Below the pieces are notes generated by a model. It was given only the letters and a program-made list of their open reading frames with translations, ran no database searches and was not told the origin of the DNA. From assembly GCA_052034495.1 (NCBI GenBank), contig JBPOIL010000001.1:84293-148292 (forward strand): a DNA stretch of 64,000 nt, read 5' to 3'. The DNA is from Patescibacteria group bacterium (GTDB lineage: Bacteria; Patescibacteriota; Saccharimonadia; CAILAD01; JADZBC01). The translations under genes and the position numbers were made by a program. This document shows, piece after piece, positions 2 to 53,294 of the stretch (position 1 is its first letter; each line of letters opens with the position of its first letter).

Positions 2-1324
2 CTTGTTTATATTGACCCGCCTTACAACACCAAAGGTGCTAACGACATATTTACCTACAATAATAGTTTCAACCACAGTGCGTGGCTAACCTTTATGAAG
101 AACCGTCTTGAAGTAGCCCACGAAATGCTTCGCAACGATGGTTTCATAGCGATAACTATTGACCACGTTGAGTTGTTCTATCTTGGTGCATTGGCAGATG
201 AGGTTTTTGGTGCGGAAAACCGTGTAGGCGTTGTAACTATTCTTATCAACCCAAAGGGGCGTCAGCACGAGAAGTTCTTTTCTGCTTCAACGGAGTATAT
301 GCTCGTCTATGCCAAAGACATTTCAAAGGCACAATTTGAGCAAGTTACTCTTGATGATGAAATTGCCCAAACCTTTGACCAGCAAGACGAACAGGGCAAG
401 TTTAGGTGGCAGTCATTTGCTCGTATTAGAACAAGCACAAGCCGTGAAGCAAAGCCCGCTTTTTATTACCCGATATACGTCAGTCCAGACTTACAGCATA
501 TTACTACTGACAACCTAGATGGTTATACCCCTGTTTACCCTGTATCAAATGGTAAGGATTATAGCTGGAAAACAAAGCCAGATACCTTTGCCGAACGTCT
601 TGCTGATGGTCAATACCGAGCTTATAAAAACGGAAATGGAAACATTGAAATACAGCACAAATATCGTGAACAGCAAGTTCTAAAAAACTTATGGACCGAC
701 AAAAAGTATTTCCCAGAGTTTCAGGGAACAAACCTATTGAAAAAGATAGTAGGCGAAGGTAAGTTCAGTTACCCTAAGTCGCTTTATGCTGTTATGGACA
801 CTATAAAACTTATGTCGTCAGGCGATGATATTGTATTGGACTTTTTCGCTGGTTCAAGTACCACTGGACACGCCGTTCTTGAATTGAACGCAATTGACGG
901 CGGAAACAGGCGGTTTATACTCGCAGAACAAATTGAGAAACATTATGACGTTGGTGTTGAACGAATTACAAAGGTAACGAAGGCACTGGATAGTAACGCT
1001 GAAACAATTTGCTTTGAACTAAAAAAATACAACCAAGAATACCTAGACGCCATTATGGAAGCAACGAGCATAAAGGAACTTGAAGACTTGTATGTTGATA
1101 TGCGTAACAATGCCTTCTTGAAGTTTTGGTTTGACCGAGCCGAGTTTGAGAAAGACGAAAACTTCCGAAGCAAAGATTTAGAAGGTCGCAAACAGGCACT
1201 TGCCGACATACTAGACGAAAACCAACTATACCTCAACTACGCCGATATGAACGATACACGTCATACAGTGTCGTCAGACGAGAAGGCACTAACGGACAAG
1301 TTCTATGGCGAAAACGAAAACTAA
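2..1324 (+). CDS. mod: Type III restriction-modification Mod subunit, N6-adenine DNA methyltransferase; 5' end cut by window edge
   Basis: Frame from nt 2 reads LVYIDPPYNT (the DPPY catalytic motif). Long ORF is 20 nt upstream-overlapped by a DEAH helicase-type res gene. Confidence 0.8.
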   Translation, partial: LVYIDPPYNTKGANDIFTYNNSFNHSAWLTFMKNRLEVAHEMLRNDGFIAITIDHVELFYLGALADEVFGAENRVGVVTILINPKGRQHEKFFSASTEYMLVYAKDISKAQFEQVTLDDEIAQTFDQQDEQGKFRWQSFARIRTSTSREAKPAFYYPIYVSPDLQHITTDNLDGYTPVYPVSNGKDYSWKTKPDTFAERLADGQYRAYKNGNGNIEIQHKYREQQVLKNLWTDKKYFPEFQGTNLLKKIVGEGKFSYPKSLYAVMDTIKLMSSGDDIVLDFFAGSSTTGHAVLELNAIDGGNRRFILAEQIEKHYDVGVERITKVTKALDSNAETICFELKKYNQEYLDAIMEATSIKELEDLYVDMRNNAFLKFWFDRAEFEKDENFRSKDLEGRKQALADILDENQLYLNYADMNDTRHTVSSDEKALTDKFYGENEN

Positions 1325-4133
1325 AATAAATGCGACACTTGGCGACTTCCTATTCAACCAAATAGAAAACGACCCTGCCTACATAGCGTGGCAAGCTGAT
1401 TTTACTATTCCTGAATACGTTACTGACAATTTGAGTAAGACCCTGCGTGAATACCAAATAAAAGCCTTGAAGCACTTTATTTGGCTGTATGAAACCGACA
1501 GAGCCAGAGCAAAGCACCTGCTGTTCAATATGGCGACAGGTACAGGTAAAACGCTCGTAATGGCGTCTGTGGTGCTATACCTATACGCACAAGGCTATCG
1601 CAACTTCCTGTTTCTAGTCCATCAGATACAAATCAAAGACCAAGCACTGAAAAACTTTACCGATTATAAGTTTGAGAAGTACCTATTCAATCCAAAGGGC
1701 GTAAGAATAAACGGGCGTAATGTAGCCGTAAAAGAAGCAAAGAGCATAACAGACACAGACCGCAACGCTATCAACTTTATGTTCTTCAGCACTTCGCTAC
1801 TTTATAATCGCCTGCTTGAAGATAAAGAAAACGGACTTACAGCCCAAGACTTTGCCGACAATGATGTAGTTGTAATTGCTGACGAAGCCCATAGGCTCAA
1901 CGTAGATACCCGAAGCAAAAAGAAGGCTGACATTGAAGAAGTCCGAAACTGGGAAACTGCCGTAATGTCGGCGGTCAAAGCTCGTGAAGGAAACCTGCTA
2001 CTTGAATATACGGCAACTGTTGATTTAGCCAACCAAGCAATTCACGAAAAGTACAAAGACAAGTTAGTTCATCGCTACGACTTTTTGGAGTTCAATCGTG
2101 ATGGTTATAGCAAGGACGTAAAGTTCTTATACAACAAAGAGGTTCATACCGAAGACCAAAAGCGTCTGCTTATCATCAACGCCGTTGCTTTGAGTGAATA
2201 TCGCAGGTTGCTTGCCGAGCGTGAAATGGGCGTTGATATGAAGCCGATTGTGCTAGTAAAGTCAGTCAAAATTGCCCAAAGTGAAGAAGACCGTGCGTTC
2301 TTTGACGGCGTTATTTCTAGCCTACGTCCAGACGACTTGAACCGATTGAAGGAACTTGCCAAGCAAAACGTAAACCACGAACACGAAATACTCAACGATA
2401 TGTTTGCGTGGCTCAAAGAGCCTAAAAACGGCTTTGTTTCGCAAGGCGATTGGGAAGGCTTGAATAAGTTTGTTAGTGAAATACGAGCCAGTTTTGCCCA
2501 CGATAATACGCTCATATACAACAGCCAGAAGAAGGAAAAAGCCGAACTGTTACCGTTGCTGGACAGCCCACGCAACACTATTCGTGCCATATTCAGCGTC
2601 AATGCTTTGAACGAAGGCTGGGACGTATTGAGCCTATACGACATTATTCACTTTGATATTAGCGAAAGTAAGAAAGTCAGTCTTCAAGATATTCAGTTGA
2701 TTGGTCGTGGTGCTAGGTATTTCCCTTATGAACTGCCACGCTCGTATAAGCCAGATGATGATAGCAATAAACTTTCTCTTGATTTTGCTCAACGCAATTT
2801 AGAGTTTGATAAAGACCGCCGAAAGTTTGATAACGCACCTTTTGAGCGTGGTCGTGTGTTGGAAACTTTTGTTTATCACTTCGTAAAGACTGGTATGTTC
2901 CTAGAAAACTTACAGCGTGATTTGCTTGGCGAAGGCATAATCAACGAAGGTGTTGAGCGAAAGACTATTACGCTAAAGACGAAGTTCCTTGAAAGCGAAA
3001 CCTACAAAAAAGGCTTTGTGCTAGTCAACCATACCGTCAAGCGAACCAAAACAACCGAAGACGAAATTGACACAACTTTCAACCGCACTATCAAGGCTGG
3101 TTTGTATAACCTACGGTCAAGGGGCTTATCTGACTATGAGCAAAACCAACAAATTGCGAGCCAGAAAACAAAGGTTATTCGTATTACCGATGAGTTTTTT
3201 GCCGAGCCGATAATACGCAAAGCGTTGGTATCTGCCGAAGCCAACTTTTTCCGCTACAACAACCTAGTTCAGCACATACCTGATTTGAAGACAGTTGACG
3301 AGCTGATAAACGAATACCTGCCAAAATACGAAATTACCTACACTTACGAAGACGGCAAAGATATTGGGTTATTGAACGCACAAGAAAAGTTACAACTGCT
3401 TGTTGGTGCTATTTTGCCAGAAGTTCGTAAGCGTATCGACATTTATATGCCACGAGAAGCAGGAAGTAACAAGTTTCGTCCAGTGTCATTATCGCAGGTG
3501 TTTGGTAAGGAAAAGAACATATACCTTATGTCGTTTCCAAGTATTGACCCTGCGACTGGCGAGAAGGTGTTCATTAGCACTGACGAGCGAGCCAAAGCCC
3601 AAAGCGACCACGACAACCCCGACTTACAGTTCAACGTAAAAGGTGCTGATTGGTATGCGTATAGTGAAAACTATGGCACAAGCGAAGAAAAGAAGTTTGT
3701 GAAATACCTTGCGAGCCAGATTGACGACTTACATATCAAATACAAAGGTGCGGAAATATACCTTGTTCGTAACGAATTGGACTATTGGCTATACAGCCTG
3801 AAAGATGGCCGTAGGTTCAGTCCAGACTATATGCTTATCATCAACGATGTTGCCAATGGCGAACTGTATTATCAGGTAATTATAGAGCCGAAAGGCGGTC
3901 ATTTGCTTGAACAGGACGCTTGGAAAGAAGAAGCCTTGATAAGCCTGAACGATGACAGTGAAGTTGTGTTTGATACCAACGAAAATGACAAGCAAGCATA
4001 CAAAGAATACTTGGCTGAAATGAGCAAGCACGGCTACAAAGAGATAAAGCCAATCGGCATAAAGTTCTATAACACTGACCCACGCCCTGAAAGCGAGTTT
4101 GCCCTAGATTTTGAGAGCAAGTTGCTGGCGTAA
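1305..4133 (+). CDS. res: Type III restriction enzyme Res subunit (SF2 helicase/endonuclease)
   Basis: Walker A ATGTGKTLV, DEAH box VVIADEAHRL, 942 aa. Overlaps the mod stop by 20 nt. Confidence 0.8.
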   Translation: MAKTKTKINATLGDFLFNQIENDPAYIAWQADFTIPEYVTDNLSKTLREYQIKALKHFIWLYETDRARAKHLLFNMATGTGKTLVMASVVLYLYAQGYRNFLFLVHQIQIKDQALKNFTDYKFEKYLFNPKGVRINGRNVAVKEAKSITDTDRNAINFMFFSTSLLYNRLLEDKENGLTAQDFADNDVVVIADEAHRLNVDTRSKKKADIEEVRNWETAVMSAVKAREGNLLLEYTATVDLANQAIHEKYKDKLVHRYDFLEFNRDGYSKDVKFLYNKEVHTEDQKRLLIINAVALSEYRRLLAEREMGVDMKPIVLVKSVKIAQSEEDRAFFDGVISSLRPDDLNRLKELAKQNVNHEHEILNDMFAWLKEPKNGFVSQGDWEGLNKFVSEIRASFAHDNTLIYNSQKKEKAELLPLLDSPRNTIRAIFSVNALNEGWDVLSLYDIIHFDISESKKVSLQDIQLIGRGARYFPYELPRSYKPDDDSNKLSLDFAQRNLEFDKDRRKFDNAPFERGRVLETFVYHFVKTGMFLENLQRDLLGEGIINEGVERKTITLKTKFLESETYKKGFVLVNHTVKRTKTTEDEIDTTFNRTIKAGLYNLRSRGLSDYEQNQQIASQKTKVIRITDEFFAEPIIRKALVSAEANFFRYNNLVQHIPDLKTVDELINEYLPKYEITYTYEDGKDIGLLNAQEKLQLLVGAILPEVRKRIDIYMPREAGSNKFRPVSLSQVFGKEKNIYLMSFPSIDPATGEKVFISTDERAKAQSDHDNPDLQFNVKGADWYAYSENYGTSEEKKFVKYLASQIDDLHIKYKGAEIYLVRNELDYWLYSLKDGRRFSPDYMLIINDVANGELYYQVIIEPKGGHLLEQDAWKEEALISLNDDSEVVFDTNENDKQAYKEYLAEMSKHGYKEIKPIGIKFYNTDPRPESEFALDFESKLLA

Positions 4134-4300
4134 TGAAGCCAATCATATCAGTCAAAGAAGCTCGTAAGTTGCTTGGTAAAGATTATGAAAAGCTGACTGA
4201 CGAGAAGATAGCCGAACTGATTGAGCAACTACACGAACTAGCCAAGTTATCTTTAGATATGGCTCGTGAACAACGCCTCAAAAAACGCTTGGCAAAATGA
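4134..4300 (+). CDS. small hypothetical protein (55 aa) translationally coupled to res
   Basis: ATG overlaps the res stop (TAATG). Basic/helical sequence MKPIISVKEARKLLGKDYEKLTDEKIAELIEQLHELAKLSLDMAREQRLKKRLAK. Below the ORF-track cutoff. Confidence 0.3.
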
Positions 4301-4366
4301 CCCCCAAAAATTCGGCATTTCATATAGCGGAGTGTCAAACAGCGAAACAAAGGGCGACTACCCCCC

Positions 4367-5326
4367 CTATGTTACCTCTGTTGGAACGCCTGTATAGAAG
4401 GCAAGTAAGTCTTCTAAATACTCTTTATTATTGGCATAAGCGTAGTCTTTAGACCAACGCACAAGCAGTAAATTACTTTGAATTATCATCTCCTCGTTTG
4501 TTATAGCGTGTCGTTTCTGCTTTTTACCAGACTTTAGTGGGTCTATAAGTTCAATAAGTATTTCTGGCGTAAGAGCAAAATAGTGTCGTCTTTGGGCTAT
4601 ATGGTTACTGTACATCTTCTCAACCATTGTTTTGCCAGTATTGTTGAACACTTCAACCACTGGCGTATCGGTAGTGATAAACTTCTTTGAGCCTTTAGCC
4701 AGATAGAACCACCATTTCTTTATTACAAACCACCTATGAAACTCTTCGCAATTAGTAATGAGCTGTAAGTGATTGACGTTATTATCAAAAGTCAGTTCAT
4801 ATTCGCCACTTACAAATGTTTTCCTTGCGTCTTCAATCTGTTCATCTGTTACTTGATGTCCTTCTTCTTCCATAGCCTTTTTAGCACCATCGGCAAAGTT
4901 TGGGTGCGTAGCCATTAGTGTAGTGATTTGTTTCATACCGTCAGCCATAGTCTTGTTTATTTGTCTTCGCATATGTGGACTTCTAATCCAAAGGGAAGCC
5001 ATAAACCACGCTAGAATATCTAATTGCTGGTCTGTTAGTGGTCGGTAATTTAGTATAGCGTCAACAATGGCGTCATACTCTTTGGCAAACTTATCTTCAA
5101 TTTCGCCAAAAAATTGCTCAAAGACTTGGCTTGTTTCGTCTTCTTTTCCAGTTTCAACAGCGTAATAAAAATCAGCATAACAAACACCGCTATAAGGTCG
5201 GGGCTTTATGAGTTTGCCTTTTTGAATATCTAAAGTCTGTAACATATTATCAACCGCAAACCGCTTGAAGTAAAAACGAGGTGCGAAATGCTGTTTCTTT
5301 GTTATCTGCTTGGTCATAATTTCCAT
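4367..5326 (-). CDS. DUF4238 family protein (defence-island associated, function unknown)
   Basis: N-terminal KKQHFAPRFYFKRF matches the DUF4238 H-x-P-x-F-Y-L-K-x-F signature. Convergent with the R-M operon. Confidence 0.6.
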   Translation of the reverse strand: MEIMTKQITKKQHFAPRFYFKRFAVDNMLQTLDIQKGKLIKPRPYSGVCYADFYYAVETGKEDETSQVFEQFFGEIEDKFAKEYDAIVDAILNYRPLTDQQLDILAWFMASLWIRSPHMRRQINKTMADGMKQITTLMATHPNFADGAKKAMEEEGHQVTDEQIEDARKTFVSGEYELTFDNNVNHLQLITNCEEFHRWFVIKKWWFYLAKGSKKFITTDTPVVEVFNNTGKTMVEKMYSNHIAQRRHYFALTPEILIELIDPLKSGKKQKRHAITNEEMIIQSNLLLVRWSKDYAYANNKEYLEDLLAFYTGVPTEVT

Positions 5327-6330: not shown

Positions 6331-7752
6331 GTGGAGGTAGTGAAGCGGAGGGCAGATTCCTTAGCAAAAATAGTCGTAGTTGGCACAATGACATTGTCTG
6401 CTTTGCTCCCCTGGATGAGTTCTTCGGCACTTGCCTTTTCGGGCGGGAACGGCAGTGCGGATAGTCCATACAGAATATCTTCATGCGCGGATCTTGCGAA
6501 TATAGCCAGTGACTTGGGCGCTTACTACGAATTGGCAAGCTCGATTAACTGCGATGCTCAGACTGCAGCACCTATCGGCTCTCAGGGTAGCCCCTTTACT
6601 GGCAGCCTAGATGGTAAAGGATACACAATATCCAATATTACCTATGTGGAAAACGCTTCAAAAATGGGGATTTTTGGCGTTACAGATGGAGCGACGATCA
6701 CGAATATGTTTCTTGACAATATCTACTACGGAGGACAAACAGATATTGGCTTAGTCGTTGGCTATGCAGCATCTACCACCATCTCCAAAATTGGAGTTAT
6801 GAATTCAATAGTTGAGGGGGCGAGCCTCCATACTGGCGCTCTAGTTGGATACTTGGGAGGGTCCACAATAGAAGAGAGCTACGCGGTAAACACTACGGTT
6901 ACAGGCGGAGCTATTGTGGGCGGCCTAGTCGGCAATGCTATTGGCCCATCAGGGGTGAGTAATAGCTACTTTCAGGGTACAGTTAACGCAAATGTAGAAG
7001 TCGGCGGTATAGCGGGTGCGGCGGGCCCTGGGCCAGCGTATGTGCAAAAGTCTTATGCAGACGCTATCTTTACTACCGCCGGGAGCGATGTGGTCGGTAC
7101 TGTTGGCGGCGGCGCCTGGGCTAGTGAGAACTTTATTGCGAGCAGTCCGTATCGAGGGAATGATACTGAGCCACCTATGGGCAGCTGGGATTTTGATTCA
7201 GTCTGGGTTGTCCGCACGAATGCCTATCCCACACTGAGGTGGTCGACCAATCTAGCCGACCTAAACGGGGATAGCATCTTAGATATTGATCAGCCAAACA
7301 TTGGCGGCTACGTAAGCTCACTTACTGGCAAGACTGTAGCAATCGACGTCGGGGCTGGCTGCGAACTAACCACTGACGATATGACTACCGAGGCTCAGTT
7401 GGCGGTTCAGGATCCGGCCTATGACTACGTGGACGGATTATGGGCTTTTGAAGCAGACTGCGGCGAGCAAGGAGCAAGTACAACTATAAAACTTTACTAC
7501 TACGATATTGCTGCCGAGGGGCTTGTAGCGCGCAAGCACAACCCAAATACAAATGCTTTCTTTAATATTCCTGGGGCAACGTTTACTCAGCAGACCATAG
7601 ACGGTCACGCCGTGATGGTAGTAACATATCAGATTGAAGATGGCGGCTCCCTAGACACAGACGGAGTGGTAGACGGGATGATCAATGACCCCGCAGGAGT
7701 TGCTAGATTGGTGTTATCGGCTCCAAATACCGGGCTAGGAGGTATAGAATAA
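6331..7752 (+). CDS. secreted GLUG-motif / beta-helix surface protein ending ...APNTGLGGIE
   Basis: Signal peptide present. N-terminus SPYRISSCADLANI...PIG..PFTGSLDGKGYTISNI. Repeated VGGLVG GLUG-type motifs. C-terminal domain is homologous to that of the next gene. Confidence 0.6.
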   Translation: MEVVKRRADSLAKIVVVGTMTLSALLPWMSSSALAFSGGNGSADSPYRISSCADLANIASDLGAYYELASSINCDAQTAAPIGSQGSPFTGSLDGKGYTISNITYVENASKMGIFGVTDGATITNMFLDNIYYGGQTDIGLVVGYAASTTISKIGVMNSIVEGASLHTGALVGYLGGSTIEESYAVNTTVTGGAIVGGLVGNAIGPSGVSNSYFQGTVNANVEVGGIAGAAGPGPAYVQKSYADAIFTTAGSDVVGTVGGGAWASENFIASSPYRGNDTEPPMGSWDFDSVWVVRTNAYPTLRWSTNLADLNGDSILDIDQPNIGGYVSSLTGKTVAIDVGAGCELTTDDMTTEAQLAVQDPAYDYVDGLWAFEADCGEQGASTTIKLYYYDIAAEGLVARKHNPNTNAFFNIPGATFTQQTIDGHAVMVVTYQIEDGGSLDTDGVVDGMINDPAGVARLVLSAPNTGLGGIE

Positions 7753-8843
7753 TGCTTAAAACCCACACACAAAGACTAGCTAGCCTCACAACAGTCTTTG
7801 CCTTGCTGTCCTCGGTAATTCTAAACACAAGTGCATTTACTGGTGTAGCCGTAGCTGCTGGCGAACCAGTAGTGGCTATCACTTCTCAGCCGAGTAATCC
7901 AAGCAATTTAGTTGCTCCTACTTTTGAATTCACCACAGATGAGCCCGCAGACACGTATTGCAGGGTTGACCTCGGCGCTTATGAGATATGCACCAGTCCA
8001 TACGAATTAAGCCCTCTTGCCGAAGGCGCCCACATCTTTCAAGTCTATGCATCGAACGGAGACGGTGACGGTTCAGTGGCCAGTGCTGCTTGGGAAATAG
8101 ACGTTACACCACCCGACACATCTATCGTGGAATCACCGAGCAGCCCCACATCGGATAACACCCCTGTGTTCACATTCACTAGCGCCGACCCAGGGGCAAC
8201 ATTTGAATGCTCAGTTGATGGTGCTGCTGCCGCCGCCTGCACGAGCCCTTACACCACAAGCCCGCTCGCCAATGGCCCTCATGAATTTGAGGTCTACGCT
8301 ATCGACGCCGCAGGTAATGTTGACGCAACGCCAGCTCAAGCATCTTTTGAGGTTGAAACGGGAGTGAACGACTACGAAATCCAAATGAGCTCAGCAGAAG
8401 ACGGCTCACTTATTAACTTTGTAGAAAATGGCTGCAGCACTCTGGGCGAGTGGGAGACTAAAAAGGAATCGGCTCTGGCAGTGCAAGATACCGCCTACGC
8501 CTATCCTGTCGGCCTAGTAAAGTTCCAGCTTGCTGGCTGCCCTATTGCAGGCACGGCAACGATACAGTTGACGTTTACGAGCAACCTCGAACCCAGCGCC
8601 GTGACCATACGAAAGTTCAATGAAGTAACCGGCGCCTTTACCACGCTAACGCAACAGAATAGCGGTCTACAAGTTAACCGCACCACCCAAGAGGGTAAGC
8701 AGGCCCTGCTGGTTGAATACGAGATCGTAGATGGTGGTTTGTTCGACCAAGACGGTGAAGCTAATGGGCAGATTCAAGACCCAGTAGGCTTGGCTACGCA
8801 AGTTGTCGGCATACCGAATACAGGCATAGGCCCAGGTAGATAG
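7752..8843 (+). CDS. secreted protein with two tandem ~80-aa Ig-like repeats, ending ...IPNTGIGPGR
   Basis: Signal peptide present. Repeats: PTFEFTTDEP..YCRVDLG..CTSPYELSPLAEGAHIFQVYA and TPVFTFTSADPGATFECSVDGAAAAACTSPYTTSPLANGPHEFEVYAIDAAGN. ATG overlaps the preceding stop. Confidence 0.6.
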   Translation: MLKTHTQRLASLTTVFALLSSVILNTSAFTGVAVAAGEPVVAITSQPSNPSNLVAPTFEFTTDEPADTYCRVDLGAYEICTSPYELSPLAEGAHIFQVYASNGDGDGSVASAAWEIDVTPPDTSIVESPSSPTSDNTPVFTFTSADPGATFECSVDGAAAAACTSPYTTSPLANGPHEFEVYAIDAAGNVDATPAQASFEVETGVNDYEIQMSSAEDGSLINFVENGCSTLGEWETKKESALAVQDTAYAYPVGLVKFQLAGCPIAGTATIQLTFTSNLEPSAVTIRKFNEVTGAFTTLTQQNSGLQVNRTTQEGKQALLVEYEIVDGGLFDQDGEANGQIQDPVGLATQVVGIPNTGIGPGR

Positions 8844-8858
8844 GCGCTTAGCGAGTAT

Positions 8859-9575
8859 TTGCAGGTCAAACGGAGTTTCGTACGGGTATATCGCTGGGGT
8901 ATACTGGCTTTTATGAAGAAGCATTCCTTTAGTCGATTAGGCGGCATGGTGGAGAGAAGATGGCTAGTGCTGGCATTGATTTTAGCCATGTTTCTAAGCA
9001 TTTGCGCCTTACTAATTGTAAAAAGAGAAAAGCCAGCTCGACAAGCAGCGAGTGTCGTCTCTTACTCTACCAATAAGCCTGATGAAACGAAGCCAAATAA
9101 GTCATACGAGTGGACAGGAAAACCAGAAGACCCGAAGAAGATCTTGATCTCAAGCTTGGGGATAGATGGCTACATGCAGAACGTCGGCGTTGATCAGAAC
9201 AAGGAAGTAGCTGTTCCCAATAATATCCATGTCGCAGGTTGGTTTGTGGAGAGTGTGCGTCCCGGGGAGAAGGGGCTGAGCATTATCGACGGCCACGTGG
9301 ATGGACGGACACAAGGTGGAATATTCGAAGATCTGGCAAAGATAAAACCTGGCGCTGAGGTGCAAATACAATTTGGGAATGGGGCAAAGAAGAAATTCAA
9401 AGTGATGAAGGTCGAGGAGGTTGCAGAGGACAAGGCCGCCAGCGTGTTGTTCTCGCAAAGCCCGAAGACCACGAACCAACTCAACTTGATCACATGCAGC
9501 GGAGACTTTAATAAGAACACTGAACGGTATGAAAAGCGTGTTATTGTCAGCACGGAGCTAGTGCCGCAAAGCTAG
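8859..9575 (+). CDS. sortase family transpeptidase (likely true start at ATG 8913, MKKHSF...)
   Basis: N-terminal TM anchor. Conserved His in IDGHVDGR. Active-site LNLITCSG (TLxTC motif). Confidence 0.7.
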   Translation: MQVKRSFVRVYRWGILAFMKKHSFSRLGGMVERRWLVLALILAMFLSICALLIVKREKPARQAASVVSYSTNKPDETKPNKSYEWTGKPEDPKKILISSLGIDGYMQNVGVDQNKEVAVPNNIHVAGWFVESVRPGEKGLSIIDGHVDGRTQGGIFEDLAKIKPGAEVQIQFGNGAKKKFKVMKVEEVAEDKAASVLFSQSPKTTNQLNLITCSGDFNKNTERYEKRVIVSTELVPQS

Positions 9576-9631: not shown

Positions 9632-11401
9632 ATGAAAAGAAAAAAATACACATTATTATTCAGTCTGGCTTTGCTCGCAGTCACTGTGGGTGGAGCCCTT
9701 TTGTATTTTAATGACTGGGTAGGTCCGGTAGCGTCAAGCACGCCAAGGCCGGTCAAGGTGGAAGACAGCCTTATTGCCCCGCGTCAGGATGAGGGGATAG
9801 CAGGAGGCGAAAAGAAGCCTCAAGCAACTGCAGATTATCCTGAACCGAAAGCCAAGAGTACCGGCGCTATGCCACTTGTGCGCTTTGAATCACCCAGTGC
9901 CAAGGCTCTGTTTTTGAAAGAGAACAGGCTCTCGTTAGCCGATGTAAACTACATCGATGAACTAGATGTTTATAGGATTAATAGGTCAGGCATTAAGTCT
10001 ACGAGAGGTTCGAGACTGTATGAGCCGCAGCGCTACCGAGCACTCCTAACCCCGAACGATACCTTCTACAGTTCGCAATGGCACTTGCATAAGGTAAACG
10101 CTTTACCAGCCTGGAACAATACCATGGGTGACGAGTCGGTCGTGATTGCAGTAATTGACACGGGCTTTGGCCTGCAGCACGAAGACTTGGATGAAAAGTG
10201 GGCCATCGATAGCGGGGAGGTCGGGCCGACTGCCAACGAGGGCGGTGCGCCAAACTGCACGAGTCGTGGTCTAGCGCTAGACAAGTCATGTAATAATATT
10301 GACGATGACGGCAATGACTATATTGACGACTACAGAGGCTGGGACTTTACCGGGGCGGATAATAGTGTGCAGGCAGGTGAAACAAGCCCGGCCGATCCTT
10401 CTGCAACTCACGGCACCTTCGTAGCTGGTTTGGCTGCAGCCGAATCCAGCAATGCACAGGGTGTAAGTGGCGTTTCGTGGGGCTCAAAGGTCTTACCAAT
10501 TCAGGCACTAAGCGATACAGGGGATGGCGATACGGTGTCTGTGGCACTGGCTATAAACTATGCAGTAGCACAGGGCGCAGGGGTAATAAACATGAGCTTG
10601 GGCTCGGACGGGGACGACCCGTTGGTTGCCGAGCAAGTTCAGGCGGCAATTGATGCTGGGGTATCAGTCGTTGCCGCCGCTGGTAATGACGGCTGGGCAC
10701 AACTGTCTTACCCCGCAAGCTACCCAGGTGTAATCGCGGTCGGGGCTACTGATAGCTCTGACAATAGGGTCAGCTTTTCGAACTACAGTTCAAACCTTGC
10801 GCTTGTAGCACCTGGCACGAGCTCGATTTGTTCTACCGCCTGGACAGAGGGTCAGCCAATCGATCGGTACGTCTGTGGCTACAGCGGCACATCATTTTCT
10901 TCGCCAATAGTCGCCGGAGCCGCTGCACTGCTGATCTCGCAGAATAGTACTTTGACGCCAGCCCAGGTCAAGACGGCACTTACCTCGACAGCTACGAAGG
11001 TTGCAGGTATGGCCGGCCAGAACTTTACGACTCGTTATGGCTATGGTCGATTGAACACCTATGAAGCACTCAAAAGTATTTCGCTTGCCGCACCACTTGG
11101 CCACGTCCTCAATACCCATACGGTTAGCTTGGCTGCCACCACAGGAATCTACCGTCCGGAAATGAATTCCACATGCACGAGTTACCATGCGTCTGCTCAG
11201 TGCAGAGTGCGCGCAATCAATACGGCTAGCAACCAGGTAGTATGGCTGGCAAACGAGCCGGGAGCGGCATCTGAGCTGAACACATATTGGAACGCTTCGA
11301 GTAGCAACCTTGGTGTCGGTACTTGGTTGGTTCAAGCATTTGCCGAGGCGACTGGCAGGCGCAGTTTAGTGCGCGAAGAGAGCCTTACGGTAAATCCTTA
11401 A
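9632..11401 (+). CDS. S8 family (subtilisin-like) serine peptidase, secreted
   Basis: Catalytic triad motifs VIAVIDTG (Asp), HGTFVAG (His) and GTSFSSPIVAG (Ser). N-terminal signal/TM. Confidence 0.8.
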   Translation: MKRKKYTLLFSLALLAVTVGGALLYFNDWVGPVASSTPRPVKVEDSLIAPRQDEGIAGGEKKPQATADYPEPKAKSTGAMPLVRFESPSAKALFLKENRLSLADVNYIDELDVYRINRSGIKSTRGSRLYEPQRYRALLTPNDTFYSSQWHLHKVNALPAWNNTMGDESVVIAVIDTGFGLQHEDLDEKWAIDSGEVGPTANEGGAPNCTSRGLALDKSCNNIDDDGNDYIDDYRGWDFTGADNSVQAGETSPADPSATHGTFVAGLAAAESSNAQGVSGVSWGSKVLPIQALSDTGDGDTVSVALAINYAVAQGAGVINMSLGSDGDDPLVAEQVQAAIDAGVSVVAAAGNDGWAQLSYPASYPGVIAVGATDSSDNRVSFSNYSSNLALVAPGTSSICSTAWTEGQPIDRYVCGYSGTSFSSPIVAGAAALLISQNSTLTPAQVKTALTSTATKVAGMAGQNFTTRYGYGRLNTYEALKSISLAAPLGHVLNTHTVSLAATTGIYRPEMNSTCTSYHASAQCRVRAINTASNQVVWLANEPGAASELNTYWNASSSNLGVGTWLVQAFAEATGRRSLVREESLTVNP

Positions 11402-29470: not shown

Positions 29471-29546
29471 GGGCCCGTAGCTCAGTGGTTAGAGCAGTCG
29501 GCTCATAACCGATTGGTCGCTGGTTCAAATCCAGCCGGGCCCACCA
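29471..29546 (+). tRNA. tRNA with CAT anticodon; sequence closely resembles E. coli tRNA-Ile2 (lysidine; ileX) rather than tRNA-Met
   Basis: GGGCCCGTAGCTCAGTGGTTAGAGCAGTCGGCTCATAACCGATTGGTCGCTGGTTCAAATCCAGCCGGGCCCACCA. Cloverleaf with anticodon loop CTCATAA. Encoded CCA. Confidence 0.85.
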
Positions 29547-36159: not shown

Positions 36160-36236
<77 letters not shown>

Positions 36237-36301: not shown

Positions 36302-36378
36302 GGCTGAGTAGCTCAGTTGGTTAGAGCGCGGGACTCATAAGCCCGAGGTCGGTGGTTCAATCCCACCCTCAGCCACCA
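36302..36378 (+). tRNA. elongator tRNA-Met (CAT)
   Basis: GGCTGAGTAGCTCAGTTGGTTAGAGCGCGGGACTCATAAGCCCGAGGTCGGTGGTTCAATCCCACCCTCAGCCACCA, similar to E. coli metT. Confidence 0.85.
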
Positions 36379-53217: not shown

Positions 53218-53294
53218 GGGCCTGTAGCTCAGTTGGTTAGAGCACCTGCCTTTTAAGCAGGGTGTCATGGGTTCGAGTCCCATCAGGCCCTCCA
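53218..53294 (+). tRNA. tRNA-Lys (TTT)
   Basis: GGGCCTGTAGCTCAGTTGGTTAGAGCACCTGCCTTTTAAGCAGGGTGTCATGGGTTCGAGTCCCATCAGGCCCTCCA. Anticodon loop CTTTTAA. Confidence 0.85.

What the first reader, a model, noticed from the sequence alone, without database searches (positions are those of the whole stretch)
6331..9575. Two secreted proteins ending in xPNTG(L/I)G without a membrane anchor, immediately upstream of a sortase
The ORFs 6331-7752 and 7752-8843 share a homologous C-terminal domain of about 90 aa (..AVQDPAYDYVDGLW...IEDGGSLDTDGVVDGMINDPAG.. compared with ..AVQDTAYAYPVGLV...IVDGGLFDQDGEANGQIQDPVG..). Both terminate APNTGLGGIE* and IPNTGIGPGR*, each a sortase-type xPxTG pentapeptide only 5-6 residues from the stop codon. 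Canonical sortase substrates carry a hydrophobic helix and charged tail after LPXTG. Here the motif is essentially C-terminal, and the last codons of the first gene double as the RBS (ctaGGAGGtatagaATAatg) of the second. The adjacent gene is a bona fide sortase (HVDGR, LNLITCSG). This points to a non-canonical sortase substrate class, for example soluble periplasm-like ligation, pilus-like polymerisation or an S-layer/cell-wall attachment variant. An S8 protease follows.
Basis: partly seen in the sequence, partly recalled or inferred. Interest (0 to 1): 0.7.

Follow-up and report, generated by a model that had tools for sequence, protein, structure and literature searches.

The report
Sortase substrates lacking a membrane anchor
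In this Saccharibacteria (TM7) genome, and in dozens of related ones, secreted surface proteins end in a sortase cleavage motif (xPNTG) followed by only a few residues instead of the usual membrane-spanning anchor, and they sit next to their own sortase type, which points to a natural and apparently undescribed anchor-less variant of Gram-positive protein sorting.

Summary
ORF1 (6331-7752) ends APNTG-LGGIE* and ORF2 (7752-8843) ends IPNTG-IGPGR*. Both have signal peptides and share a C-terminal module that is the catalogued NCBIfam "choice-of-anchor U" domain. A membrane-anchored sortase with His/Cys/Arg follows.

This is not an artefact. In 80 related loci, almost all Saccharibacteria, 53 proteins carry the same domain, then a fixed 7-residue spacer, xPNTG (P, T and G in 53/53), a hydrophobic residue and a tail with a median of 5 aa and no hydrophobic helix. 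Most lie directly upstream of the sortase. Of the 151 best of 3,613 domain-bearing cluster representatives, 84 are short-tailed and 61 have the same or an LxxTG motif plus a classical helix and basic tail.

Tail type tracks sortase similarity: 53/55 nearest neighbours agree. Two genomes carry both sortase types.

Best reading: these are real substrates of a dedicated sortase paralog that work without the membrane-retention element. The acceptor is unknown; cell wall is most likely. The S8 protease and the RBS overlap are local coincidences. I found no literature or curated model for this. It is a new variant of a known system, supported by comparative genomics only.

The parts
6331..7752 (+). 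ORF1: secreted surface protein, 473 aa (alternative start 6340). It has an N-terminal signal peptide, a GLUG/ZmpA-like passenger, the choice-of-anchor U domain, APNTG and the tail LGGIE.
7414..7704 (+). Choice-of-anchor U domain of ORF1 (aa 362-458).
   Evidence: NF041766, E 5.6e-15, 56 bits against a cutoff of 32
7720..7734 (+). APNTG, the sortase-type pentapeptide of ORF1. The tail LGGIE is at 7735-7749 and the stop at 7750-7752.
   Evidence: Sequence; motif conservation
7752..8843 (+). ORF2: secreted surface protein, 363 aa. It has a signal peptide, two Ig-like (Big_13-type) domains, the choice-of-anchor U domain, IPNTG and the tail IGPGR.
8490..8795 (+). Choice-of-anchor U domain of ORF2 (aa 247-348). 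It is predicted as an all-beta sandwich.
   Evidence: NF041766, E 6.1e-17; AlphaFold2 pLDDT 89
8811..8825 (+). IPNTG, the sortase-type pentapeptide of ORF2. The tail IGPGR is at 8826-8840 and the TAG stop at 8841-8843.
   Evidence: Sequence; the tail region has low pLDDT and is probably flexible
8949..9575 (+). Membrane-anchored sortase of the short-tail-associated type (208 aa from 8949; alternative starts 8925 and 8859). TM helix about 8973-9032; catalytic His codon 9294-9296; Cys 9495-9497; Arg 9537-9539.
   Evidence: Pfam Sortase E 1.4e-18; best NCBIfam match is class F at 113.6 bits, below the cutoff of 166. Sortase fold: pLDDT 87.8, Foldseek E about 1e-8 to solved sortases. Sortase type:
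9632..11401 (+). S8 subtilisin-like peptidase with an N-terminal membrane anchor. It is a neighbour but not a conserved part of the system.
   Evidence: Pfam Peptidase_S8 E 3e-55. A homolog is adjacent only in the window and in L001

Best explanation
ORF1 and ORF2 are Sec-exported, adhesin-like surface proteins of a Candidatus Saccharibacteria bacterium.

**Anatomy.** Each ends in a sorting cassette: a choice-of-anchor U beta-sandwich, a fixed and semi-conserved 7-residue spacer ([LI][AG]xx[VA][VIL]G), the sortase pentapeptide xPNTG, one hydrophobic residue, and a very short tail that is often GG plus Arg/Lys. No membrane-spanning segment follows.

**The enzyme.** The adjacent membrane-anchored sortase belongs to a Saccharibacteria sortase type that is genetically coupled to such short-tailed proteins. 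A paralogous type is coupled to proteins with the same motif followed by a classical hydrophobic helix and basic tail.

**Most likely mechanism.**
- After export, the sortase Cys attacks the Thr-Gly bond. This releases the small peptide G-[LIVF]-G-G-R... and forms an acyl-enzyme.
- The acyl-enzyme is resolved onto an amine acceptor, most probably a peptidoglycan precursor or the wall. The protein is then displayed covalently on the cell.
- The retention role normally played by the helix and charged tail is either dispensable or replaced. Candidates for the replacement are an extended recognition surface (rigid spacer plus folded domain), the cationic mini-tail, and/or confinement under the envelope.

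**Shown:** the anatomy, its conservation, the synteny and the link to sortase type.

**Inferred:** cleavage at T|G, the identity of the acceptor, and how retention is replaced.
For: 1. Both proteins carry the domain, the motif and the short tail, and a sortase with His/Cys/Arg and an N-terminal helix follows.
2. In 80 related loci there are 53 short-tailed proteins with the domain. P, T and G are present in 53/53, N in 43/53, and a hydrophobic residue follows G in 52/53. The tail has a median of 5 aa, is never 0, and holds Arg/Lys in 41/53.
3. The same xPNTG+[LIFY] motif is followed by a classical helix and basic tail in proteins next to related sortases. That identifies xPNTG as the sortase motif of this lineage.
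4. An exhaustive profile search finds 3,613 cluster representatives with the domain. Among the top 151, 84 are xPxTG+short, 48 xPxTG+TM and 13 LxxTG+TM. By a slightly different tail cut-off (82 short, 45 TM), the spacer is exactly 7 aa in 80/82 short-tailed ones but ranges from 5 to 23 aa in TM-tailed ones.
5. 43 of 62 sortases of the short-tail type have such a gene nearby on the same strand (within 3.5 kb; 26 directly upstream), and three more have one within about 5 kb.
6. Tail type tracks sortase similarity: nearest-neighbour concordance is 53/55, and 0 of 2,000 permutations reach it. In L022 and L025 the two co-resident sortases are 34-37% identical to each other but 47-55% identical to their own type elsewhere.
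7. The passengers are diverse adhesin-type modules (GLUG, C-type lectin, PD40 propeller, BspA LRR, fn3, Ig-like), and 41/46 proteins have an N-terminal signal. This fits a general surface-display cassette.
8. In the AlphaFold2 model the domain folds confidently and the PNTG tail is flexible, so it is accessible.
9. There is a chemical precedent. Native S. aureus SrtA incorporates soluble LPETG peptides into the wall, and LPETG plus a cationic cluster without the hydrophobic domain is incorporated about 20-fold better (PMC4723074).
10. The LGG tail is conserved at the protein level and is not an embedded RBS.
Against: - There is no biochemical or proteomic evidence for cleavage or anchoring in any Saccharibacteria.
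- In classical systems the sorting signal is said to halt translocation so that sortase can act (abstract of PMC4617865, seen). No substitute retention mechanism is shown here.
- About 20 sortases of the short-tail type have no such neighbour in the DNA I hold.
- Bootstrap support for one clean split between the two sortase types is weak: 36/100 replicates with at most one exception.
- ORF1's tail (LGGIE) has no positive charge.
- The sortase scores below the curated class F cutoff.
- I could not do whole-genome censuses, because only 20-kb loci were available.
Confidence: 0.62

Rival explanations
1. Protein-to-protein ligation or polymerisation. The dedicated sortase joins the Thr of xPNTG to a Lys, or to the N-terminus, of another protein rather than to peptidoglycan. 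The partner could be another choice-of-anchor U protein, a TM-tailed base subunit or an S-layer component. The product would be pilus-like fibres or a covalent surface lattice.
For: - Short-tailed paralogs occur in tandem next to one sortase in the window and in L016, L025, L036, L040 and L019.
- L017 has a short-tailed gene upstream of the same sortase and two TM-tailed genes downstream.
- The domain has an invariant Arg and a nearly invariant Lys (RKYN).
- IPNTG is the sorting motif of group B Streptococcus pilins (PMC3166054).
- The best Foldseek hits of the sortase include pilus-specific class C sortases.
Against: - The passengers are large and heterogeneous adhesin or enzyme-like modules, not pilin-like.
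- Many loci have a single substrate.
- No class C lid motif (DP[FWY]) is evident; the segment here reads DPKK.
- The sortase matches classes A, C and E about equally.
Confidence: 0.17
2. Released rather than anchored. The short-tailed proteins are secreted into the medium or onto the host. The sortase either only trims the tail by hydrolysis or does not act on them at all, and xPNTG persists for structural or historical reasons.
For: - Without the hydrophobic helix and charged tail, classical substrates are not held at the membrane for sortase (abstract of PMC4617865).
- Saccharibacteria live attached to host bacteria (abstract of PMC11623550, listed), and released adhesins or enzymes could act on the host.
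- Some tails (LGGIE, FIDSK) are not cationic.
Against: - A relic motif would decay. Yet P, T and G are invariant across more than 130 proteins from clusters below 50% identity, while the neighbouring tail residues vary freely.
- The tail is never shorter than one residue after Gly, so the scissile T-G bond is always preserved.
- The tight same-strand synteny and the link to sortase type argue for a functional enzyme-substrate pair.
- PNTG lies outside the confidently folded core.
Confidence: 0.14
3. Artefact or recoding. The true proteins continue past the annotated stop, through a frameshift, a sequencing error, stop-codon readthrough or an alternative genetic code, into a normal membrane anchor.
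For: ORF2's TAG is in frame with the sortase ORF, whose N-terminal helix lies about 45 residues downstream. 13 of 26 adjacent pairs are in frame and 9 are separated by a single stop, against an expected third (p about 0.06).
Against: - The pattern recurs in independent assemblies with TAA, TAG and TGA stops and with tail lengths of 1-30 aa.
- Half of the adjacent pairs are out of frame.
- A readthrough fusion would place the sortase domain in the cytoplasm.
- ORF1 is followed directly by ORF2's signal peptide, not by an anchor.
- Genuine TM-tailed paralogs exist as separate genes.
Confidence: 0.03

Closest known systems
Classical LPXTG cell-wall sorting signal processed by a housekeeping sortase (for example S. 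aureus SrtA and protein A)
   Same: There is an N-terminal Sec signal and a C-terminal xPxTG pentapeptide with invariant Pro, Thr and Gly. The sortase is membrane-anchored and has His/Cys/Arg. Basic residues are frequent at the extreme C-terminus. The passengers are adhesin-like.
   Different: The hydrophobic membrane-spanning segment, one of the three defining parts of the signal, is absent; the tail has a median of 5 residues. The motif sits at a fixed 7-residue distance from a folded domain. The substrates are encoded next to a dedicated sortase paralog rather than dispersed around the genome.
Class F sortases (NCBIfam NF033748), the name NCBI gives to a Saccharibacteria homolog
   Same: Class F is the best-scoring sortase class for the window enzyme (E 6e-33). 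It is a single-pass, N-terminally anchored enzyme with the sortase fold.
   Different: It scores 113.6 bits against a curated cutoff of 166, and it is only 15-24% identical to any solved sortase. No class F enzyme is known to me to be tied to anchor-less substrates (from memory, not tested).
Choice-of-anchor U domain proteins (NCBIfam NF041766)
   Same: Both ORFs contain this domain above the cutoff. The family name fits what I see: the domain precedes alternative C-terminal sorting signals (xPNTG+TM, LxxTG+TM and others).
   Different: The model ends at ...DPxG and does not describe what follows. The short xPNTG tail is the commonest ending among the best 151 representatives, yet no curated sorting-signal model captures it.
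Pilus-specific (class C) sortase loci of Gram-positive bacteria, such as group B Streptococcus PI-1 with IPNTG pilins
   Same: There is a dedicated sortase encoded beside one to three substrates. The I/V-P-N-T-G motif is identical to that of GBS pilins (PMC3166054).
   Different: The substrates lack TM tails, show no pilin-like CnaA/B fold and carry heterogeneous passengers. The sortase has no recognisable lid motif.
Engineered sortase tags (LPETG-XX) and exogenous LPETG peptides incorporated by native SrtA (PMC4723074)
   Same: In both, a sortase motif followed by only a few residues works as a soluble substrate with no membrane tether. In the experiments a short cationic extension improved incorporation about 20-fold, which resembles the natural GG-R/K tails.
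   Different: Those substrates are artificial and needed high concentrations. Here the arrangement is natural, conserved across a lineage, and coupled to a folded domain and a specific sortase paralog.

Membership tests
Canonical LPXTG cell-wall sorting signal (tripartite CWSS; TIGR01167 LPXTG_anchor) | LPXTG-like pentapeptide near the C-terminus | tested here: met
   APNTG and IPNTG. P, T and G are invariant in 53/53 relatives.
Canonical LPXTG cell-wall sorting signal (tripartite CWSS; TIGR01167 LPXTG_anchor) | Hydrophobic membrane-spanning segment of about 15-20 aa after the motif | tested here: not met
   The tails are 5 aa in both ORFs. In relatives the median is 5 aa and no 15-aa window passes the hydrophobicity threshold. 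There is no TIGR01167 hit even at E <= 10.
Canonical LPXTG cell-wall sorting signal (tripartite CWSS; TIGR01167 LPXTG_anchor) | Positively charged residues at the extreme C-terminus | tested here: inconclusive
   ORF2 ends in Arg, but ORF1 ends LGGIE with no basic residue. Tails hold Arg/Lys in 41/53 locus proteins and 60/82 representatives, and the mean net charge is +0.95.
Canonical LPXTG cell-wall sorting signal (tripartite CWSS; TIGR01167 LPXTG_anchor) | N-terminal secretion signal and a sortase encoded in the genome | tested here: met
   Both ORFs have signal-peptide-like N-termini, as do 41/46 relatives. The sortase is adjacent.
Canonical LPXTG cell-wall sorting signal (tripartite CWSS; TIGR01167 LPXTG_anchor) | Cleavage between Thr and Gly and amide linkage to peptidoglycan | not testable with these tools
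   This needs mass spectrometry or an in vitro assay.
Sortase superfamily (Pfam PF04203) | HMM match above the gathering score, with the catalytic His, the TLxTC-type Cys and the Arg | tested here: met
   67.3 bits against a cutoff of 26.6. IDGHVDG, LNLITCSG and KRVIV are invariant in the alignment. The AlphaFold2 model matches solved sortases at E about 1e-8.
Class F sortase (NCBIfam NF033748) | Score at or above the curated cutoff of 166 bits | tested here: not met
   113.6 bits. Class F is the best class, but the score is below the cutoff. The structure search does not discriminate between classes.
Choice-of-anchor U domain (NCBIfam NF041766) | Score at or above the curated cutoff of 32 bits, with the domain placed just before a C-terminal sorting signal | tested here: met
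   56.0 and 62.3 bits. The domain ends 15 residues before each stop codon.
Sortase-assembled pilus locus (class C sortase plus pilins) | Pilin subunits with CnaA/CnaB-type folds and a pilin-motif Lys | tested here: not met
   There is no significant structural similarity to pilin domains. Pfam finds lectin, GLUG, propeller, LRR and Ig passengers. A conserved Lys exists in the domain, but its role is untested.
Sortase-assembled pilus locus (class C sortase plus pilins) | Class C sortase with a lid (DP[FWY]) over the active site | tested here: inconclusive
   The conserved N-terminal segment reads ...W.G.P.DPKK, with no aromatic residue after DP, and it is absent from part of the sortase type. 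Class C structures are among the top hits but are not distinguished from classes A and E.

The most novel reading that the evidence does not exclude
Saccharibacteria have evolved a membrane-anchor-independent sortase pathway. A dedicated sortase paralog recognises a folded domain plus a rigidly spaced extended motif (about 13 residues, [LI][AG]xx[VA][VIL]G-xPNTG-[LIVF]) on fully translocated, soluble proteins. This 'domain-guided' sorting replaces the hydrophobic retention signal. It could allow ligation to acceptors other than the cell's own lipid II, for example an S-layer, another surface protein or even the host bacterium's wall.
Probability: 0.35. Interest if true: 0.8.

Novelty: new variant of a known kind. 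Interest (0 to 1): 0.62.

Why it matters
**For sortase biology.** The three-part sorting signal (motif, hydrophobic helix, charged tail) is the textbook definition of a sortase substrate, and genome annotation relies on it. If the short-tailed proteins are real substrates, then:

- Many surface proteins of Saccharibacteria are currently invisible to sortase-substrate predictors. No curated signal model hits them.
- Membrane retention is not a universal requirement for sortase-mediated sorting.

**For Saccharibacteria.** These are ultrasmall bacteria that live attached to other bacteria (abstracts listed). The proteins involved, carrying lectin, LRR, Ig-like and beta-helix passengers, are prime candidates for host recognition and attachment.

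**For protein engineering.** Such an enzyme and tag pair would be a natural counterpart of the engineered sortase tags, and might have higher affinity for soluble substrates.

**Testability.** The proposal can be tested directly by mass spectrometry or with recombinant proteins.

Tried and rejected
1. **S8 protease as part of the system.** Rejected. A homolog is adjacent only in the window and in L001.
2. **The 'LGG' tail as an embedded Shine-Dalgarno.** Rejected. Only 2 of 23 such tails hold an SD-like core, and the Gly codons are mostly GGC/GGT.
3. **Stop-codon readthrough into the sortase's TM helix.** ORF2 is in frame, and 13 of 26 pairs are in frame (p about 0.06). Rejected as a general mechanism, because half the pairs are out of frame and the fusion would have the wrong topology. 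The mild excess remains unexplained.
5. **Assigning the sortase class by structure.** The model matches classes C, A and E equally. By sequence, the nearest PDB entry is S. aureus SrtA at E 7e-5.
6. **One clean, well-supported split into two sortase clades.** The point-estimate NJ tree shows it, but bootstrap support is weak. I replaced it with nearest-neighbour and paralog-pair tests.
7. **An N-terminal W-x-G-x-P-x-DPKK segment as the determinant of the short-tail type.** It is present in 32/48 such sortases and 0/11 of the other type. It is absent from a subclade that still has short-tailed partners, so it is not a universal determinant.
8. **Word-indexed homolog search with the domain profile.** It returned only 12 fragments. 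The exhaustive HMMER search was needed.
9. **Promoter and terminator scans.** The counts were no higher than in shuffled sequence.
10. **Literature searches.** I searched Saccharibacteria or Patescibacteria with sortase, class F sortase, choice-of-anchor, the motif strings, and anchor-less sorting signals. None returned a description of this arrangement. The library holds open-access papers only, so an earlier description elsewhere cannot be excluded.
11. **Source names.** Public sources give these proteins no informative names.


Full report
**1. The observation**

- ORF1 (6331-7752, 473 aa) ends ...VLSAPNTGLGGIE*.
- ORF2 (7752-8843, 363 aa) ends ...VVGIPNTGIGPGR*.
- ORF1's TAA overlaps ORF2's ATG by one base. 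The codons for L-G-G contain GGAGG 9 nt upstream of that ATG.
- Both N-termini look like Sec signal peptides.
- The next gene is a sortase (Pfam PF04203, E 1.4e-18; IDGHVDG and LNLITCSG). A gene caller starts it at 8949, about 105 bp after ORF2's stop.
- An S8 peptidase follows.
- These are the only two ORFs in the 64-kb window with xPxTG within ten residues of the stop.
- In six-frame ORFs of related loci, such a motif without the shared domain occurs in about 0.2% of ORFs.

**2. The shared C-terminal module**

The module is a catalogued domain: NCBIfam NF041766, "choice-of-anchor U" (56 and 62 bits against a cutoff of 32). The model ends at the conserved ...D.DG..(N/D)G.I.DP.G motif, 15 residues before each stop.

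An AlphaFold2 model of the last 131 residues of ORF2 gives a confident all-beta sandwich (pLDDT 89). Its last strand ends at ...DPVGLATQ, and the VVGIPNTGIGPGR segment has low confidence, so it is probably flexible and exposed.

**3. The organism**

The sortase's relatives are almost all from Candidatus Saccharibacteria/Saccharimonadales metagenome-assembled genomes (MAGs). NCBI names one homolog "class F sortase [Candidatus Saccharibacteria bacterium]". The window's contig is a 258-kb NCBI record, and public sources give these proteins no informative names.

**4. The short tail is not an artefact**

Close homologs of ORF2 keep the motif with different short tails: P0002 (74% identical) ends ...APNTGL*, and P0003 (73%) ends ...VPNTGLYK*. 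A 44%-identical homolog, P0016, ends LADTG followed by a hydrophobic helix and RRDRAFK.

I fetched 80 genomic loci around homologs of the sortase and scanned every ORF.

- 53 proteins from 47 sequence sources have the domain followed by xPxTG and a tail with no hydrophobic helix.
- P, T and G are present in 53/53, and N in 43/53.
- The residue after Gly is L, I, V or F in 52/53.
- The tail has a median of 5 residues, with a range of 1-30. It is never zero.
- 41/53 tails contain Arg or Lys. A common form is PNTG-LGG-R/Q.
- All three stop codons are used.

An exhaustive HMMER search of 1.84 billion cluster representatives found the domain in 3,613 of them, 512 at E <= 1e-30. Among the best 151:

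- 84 are xPxTG plus a short tail.
- 48 are xPxTG plus a hydrophobic helix and basic tail.
- 13 are LxxTG plus a helix.
- The remaining 6 do not fit these classes.

The short tail is therefore the commonest ending of this domain among the best matches. It is not a truncation peculiar to this genome.

**5. xPNTG is a sortase motif, not just the end of the domain**

- In other loci of the same set, proteins next to related sortases carry the same A/V/T-P-N-T-G+[LFIY] followed by a textbook hydrophobic helix and Arg/Lys-rich tail. Several of these also have the choice-of-anchor U domain.
- In those TM-tailed proteins the spacer between DPxG and xPNTG varies from 5 to 23 residues, so the motif can be separated from the domain.
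- In short-tailed proteins the spacer is exactly 7 residues in 80/82 representatives, and it is semi-conserved ([LI][AG]xx[VA][VIL]G).
- The motif lies outside the confidently folded core.
- The recurrent GG after the hydrophobic residue is conserved at the protein level. Only 2 of 23 such tails contain a Shine-Dalgarno-like core, and the Gly codons are mostly GGC/GGT.

**6. The link to a particular sortase type**

- In an NJ tree of 83 sortases from these loci, those adjacent to TM-tailed proteins (13) group apart from those adjacent to short-tailed proteins (42, including the window's). One sortase, in L017, is flanked by both kinds.
- Bootstrap support for one clean deep split is weak on this 208-column alignment: all TM-associated sortases group with at most one short-tail-associated one in 36/100 replicates. 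I therefore do not claim two robust clades.
- The local association is strong. For 53 of 55 labelled sortases the most similar labelled sortase from another locus has the same tail type (11/13 for the TM type), and 0 of 2,000 label permutations reach this.
- In the two loci that encode both types (L022, L025), the co-resident sortases are 34-37% identical to each other. Each is 47-55% identical to its own type in other genomes. That is the pattern expected of diverged paralogs.
- Both types share the catalytic His, Cys and Arg. Only a few positions in the loop before the Cys (VLFSQ) are conserved solely in the short-tail type.
- 43 of 62 sortases of that type have a short-tailed gene nearby on the same strand (within 3.5 kb; 26 directly upstream). 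Three more have one within about 5 kb. The rest are at contig ends or in other contexts.
- The TM-tailed homolog P0016 is not next to a sortase, as is usual for dispersed substrates of a housekeeping enzyme.

**7. What the proteins are**

The passengers are heterogeneous: GLUG/IgA-protease-like beta-helix, C-type lectin, Listeria-Bacteroides repeats, PD40 beta-propeller, BspA-type LRR, fn3 and Ig-like Big_13. This is the repertoire of surface adhesins and enzymes, not of pilins. It argues that the domain-motif-tail unit is a general sorting cassette.

**8. Mechanism**

Established knowledge: sortases cleave between Thr and Gly, form a thioacyl intermediate and transfer the protein to an amine. 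The classical signal's helix and charged tail hold the substrate at the membrane (abstract of PMC4617865, seen).

The chemistry does not need a membrane tether. Native S. aureus SrtA incorporates soluble LPETG peptides into the wall, and LPETG extended by a cationic cluster without the hydrophobic domain is incorporated about 20-fold better than LPETG-amide (PMC4723074). The natural tails here (one hydrophobic residue, often GG, then Arg/Lys) resemble that substrate. The fact that the tail is never shorter than one residue preserves the scissile T-G peptide bond.

My best explanation (confidence 0.62) is that these are real substrates of the adjacent sortase paralog, cleaved at T|G and transferred to an amine acceptor. 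Wall peptidoglycan is the most likely acceptor. Retention would be replaced by an extended, rigidly spaced recognition element, the cationic mini-tail and/or confinement under the envelope. The cleavage, the acceptor and the retention substitute are inferences.

**9. Rivals**

- **Ligation to another protein, or polymerisation (0.17).** For: tandem paralogs, L017's mixed locus, a conserved Lys in the domain, and the identity of IPNTG with GBS pilin motifs (PMC3166054). Against: the non-pilin fold and the diverse passengers.
- **Release without anchoring (0.14).** For: the missing retention signal. Against: the invariance of P, T and G beside freely varying tails, and the synteny.
- **Artefact or readthrough (0.03).** ORF2's TAG is in frame with the sortase ORF, and 13 of 26 adjacent pairs are in frame (p about 0.06). 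But half are out of frame, and a fusion would have the wrong topology.

**10. Comparison with what is known**

- The system works like a sortase/LPXTG system, but it fails one of the three defining features of the canonical signal, the hydrophobic segment. No curated sorting-signal model recognises either the short tails or the lineage's APNTG+TM tails.
- The sortase is a true sortase. It scores below the curated class F cutoff (113.6 against 166 bits), and structure does not assign it to a class.
- The S8 protease is not a conserved partner.
- Searches of the open-access literature found no description of sortase substrates in Saccharibacteria/CPR or of natural anchor-less sortase signals. 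Méheust et al. 2019 note only that a sortase family occurs in more than half of CPR genomes (PMC6744442; other searches). Subscription-only literature was not searchable, so an earlier description cannot be excluded.

**11. Verdict**

It is a new variant of a known kind of system: a conserved, lineage-wide, anchor-less sortase signal attached to a catalogued domain and paired with its own sortase type.

Interest is 0.62. The arrangement contradicts the textbook definition of a sortase substrate and is directly testable. It still rests on inference alone, and the parts themselves (sortase, domain) are known.

Noticed in passing
window 8841-8949, and loci L001, L003, L008, L025, L026, L044, L055, L067: ORF2's TAG stop is in frame with the sortase ORF. 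Across loci, 13 of 26 directly adjacent short-tailed genes are in frame with the sortase, and 9 are separated from it by a single stop codon (expected one third; binomial p about 0.06). I rejected readthrough as a general mechanism, but the mild excess is unexplained.
   Followed up: partly
L018 7580-8086, L024 2394-2888, L023 10492-11046, L037 10672-11214, L033 9389-9883, L029 140-616, L022 14621-15187: A small conserved gene (about 165-185 aa, ending ...KD..G.(Y/L)TATRIRIQK) lies beside or a few kb from the sortase (directly flanking it in most of these loci) in one subclade that lacks an adjacent short-tailed substrate. Its function is unknown.
   Followed up: no
L049 6657-9842 (also L039, L051, L052, L057, L058, L061, L073): In one subclade the substrate has a PD40 beta-propeller passenger. 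In L049, the one locus inspected, a 539-aa polytopic membrane protein on the opposite strand sits between the substrate and the sortase; the other loci share the same ~1.6-kb gap. Several of these tails are 16-18 aa long and end in a conserved ...(A/D)APSL.
   Followed up: partly
window about 9102-9137 (sortase residues about 60-71 counted from 8925): A conserved Y-x-W-x-G-x-P-x-D-P-K-K segment precedes the catalytic domain. The [YF]-x-W-x-G part is present in 32/48 short-tail-type sortases and 0/11 TM-type ones, but it is missing from one short-tail subclade. It might be an N-terminal appendage or lid.
   Followed up: partly
L017 7925-14170: One sortase is flanked by a short-tailed substrate (TPNTG+6 aa) upstream and two APDTG+TM-tailed proteins downstream. 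This is the only locus that mixes both signal types around a single enzyme.
   Followed up: no
P0297 (3,668 aa): This giant protein has 10 matching stretches of the choice-of-anchor U profile. It ends in a different signal, a poly-Gly run followed by Cys, a hydrophobic helix and RKLREF. That fits the 'choice of anchor' idea and shows the domain is used with other sorting systems.
   Followed up: no
window 29471-29546, 36160-36236, 36302-36378, 53218-53294: There are three tRNA-Met genes, two of them in tandem, and one tRNA-Lys in the window.
   Followed up: no
window 1305-5326: A ResIII/DEAD-type helicase-nuclease (942 aa) lies next to a divergently oriented DUF4238 protein. This may be a defence-related pair and is unrelated to the finding.
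   Followed up: no
L007, L041, L061, L080 (record titles): Loci with typical Saccharibacteria-type sortase cassettes sit in MAGs labelled Limnocylindria, Burkholderiales or Bacillota. These are probably binning or labelling errors.
   Followed up: no
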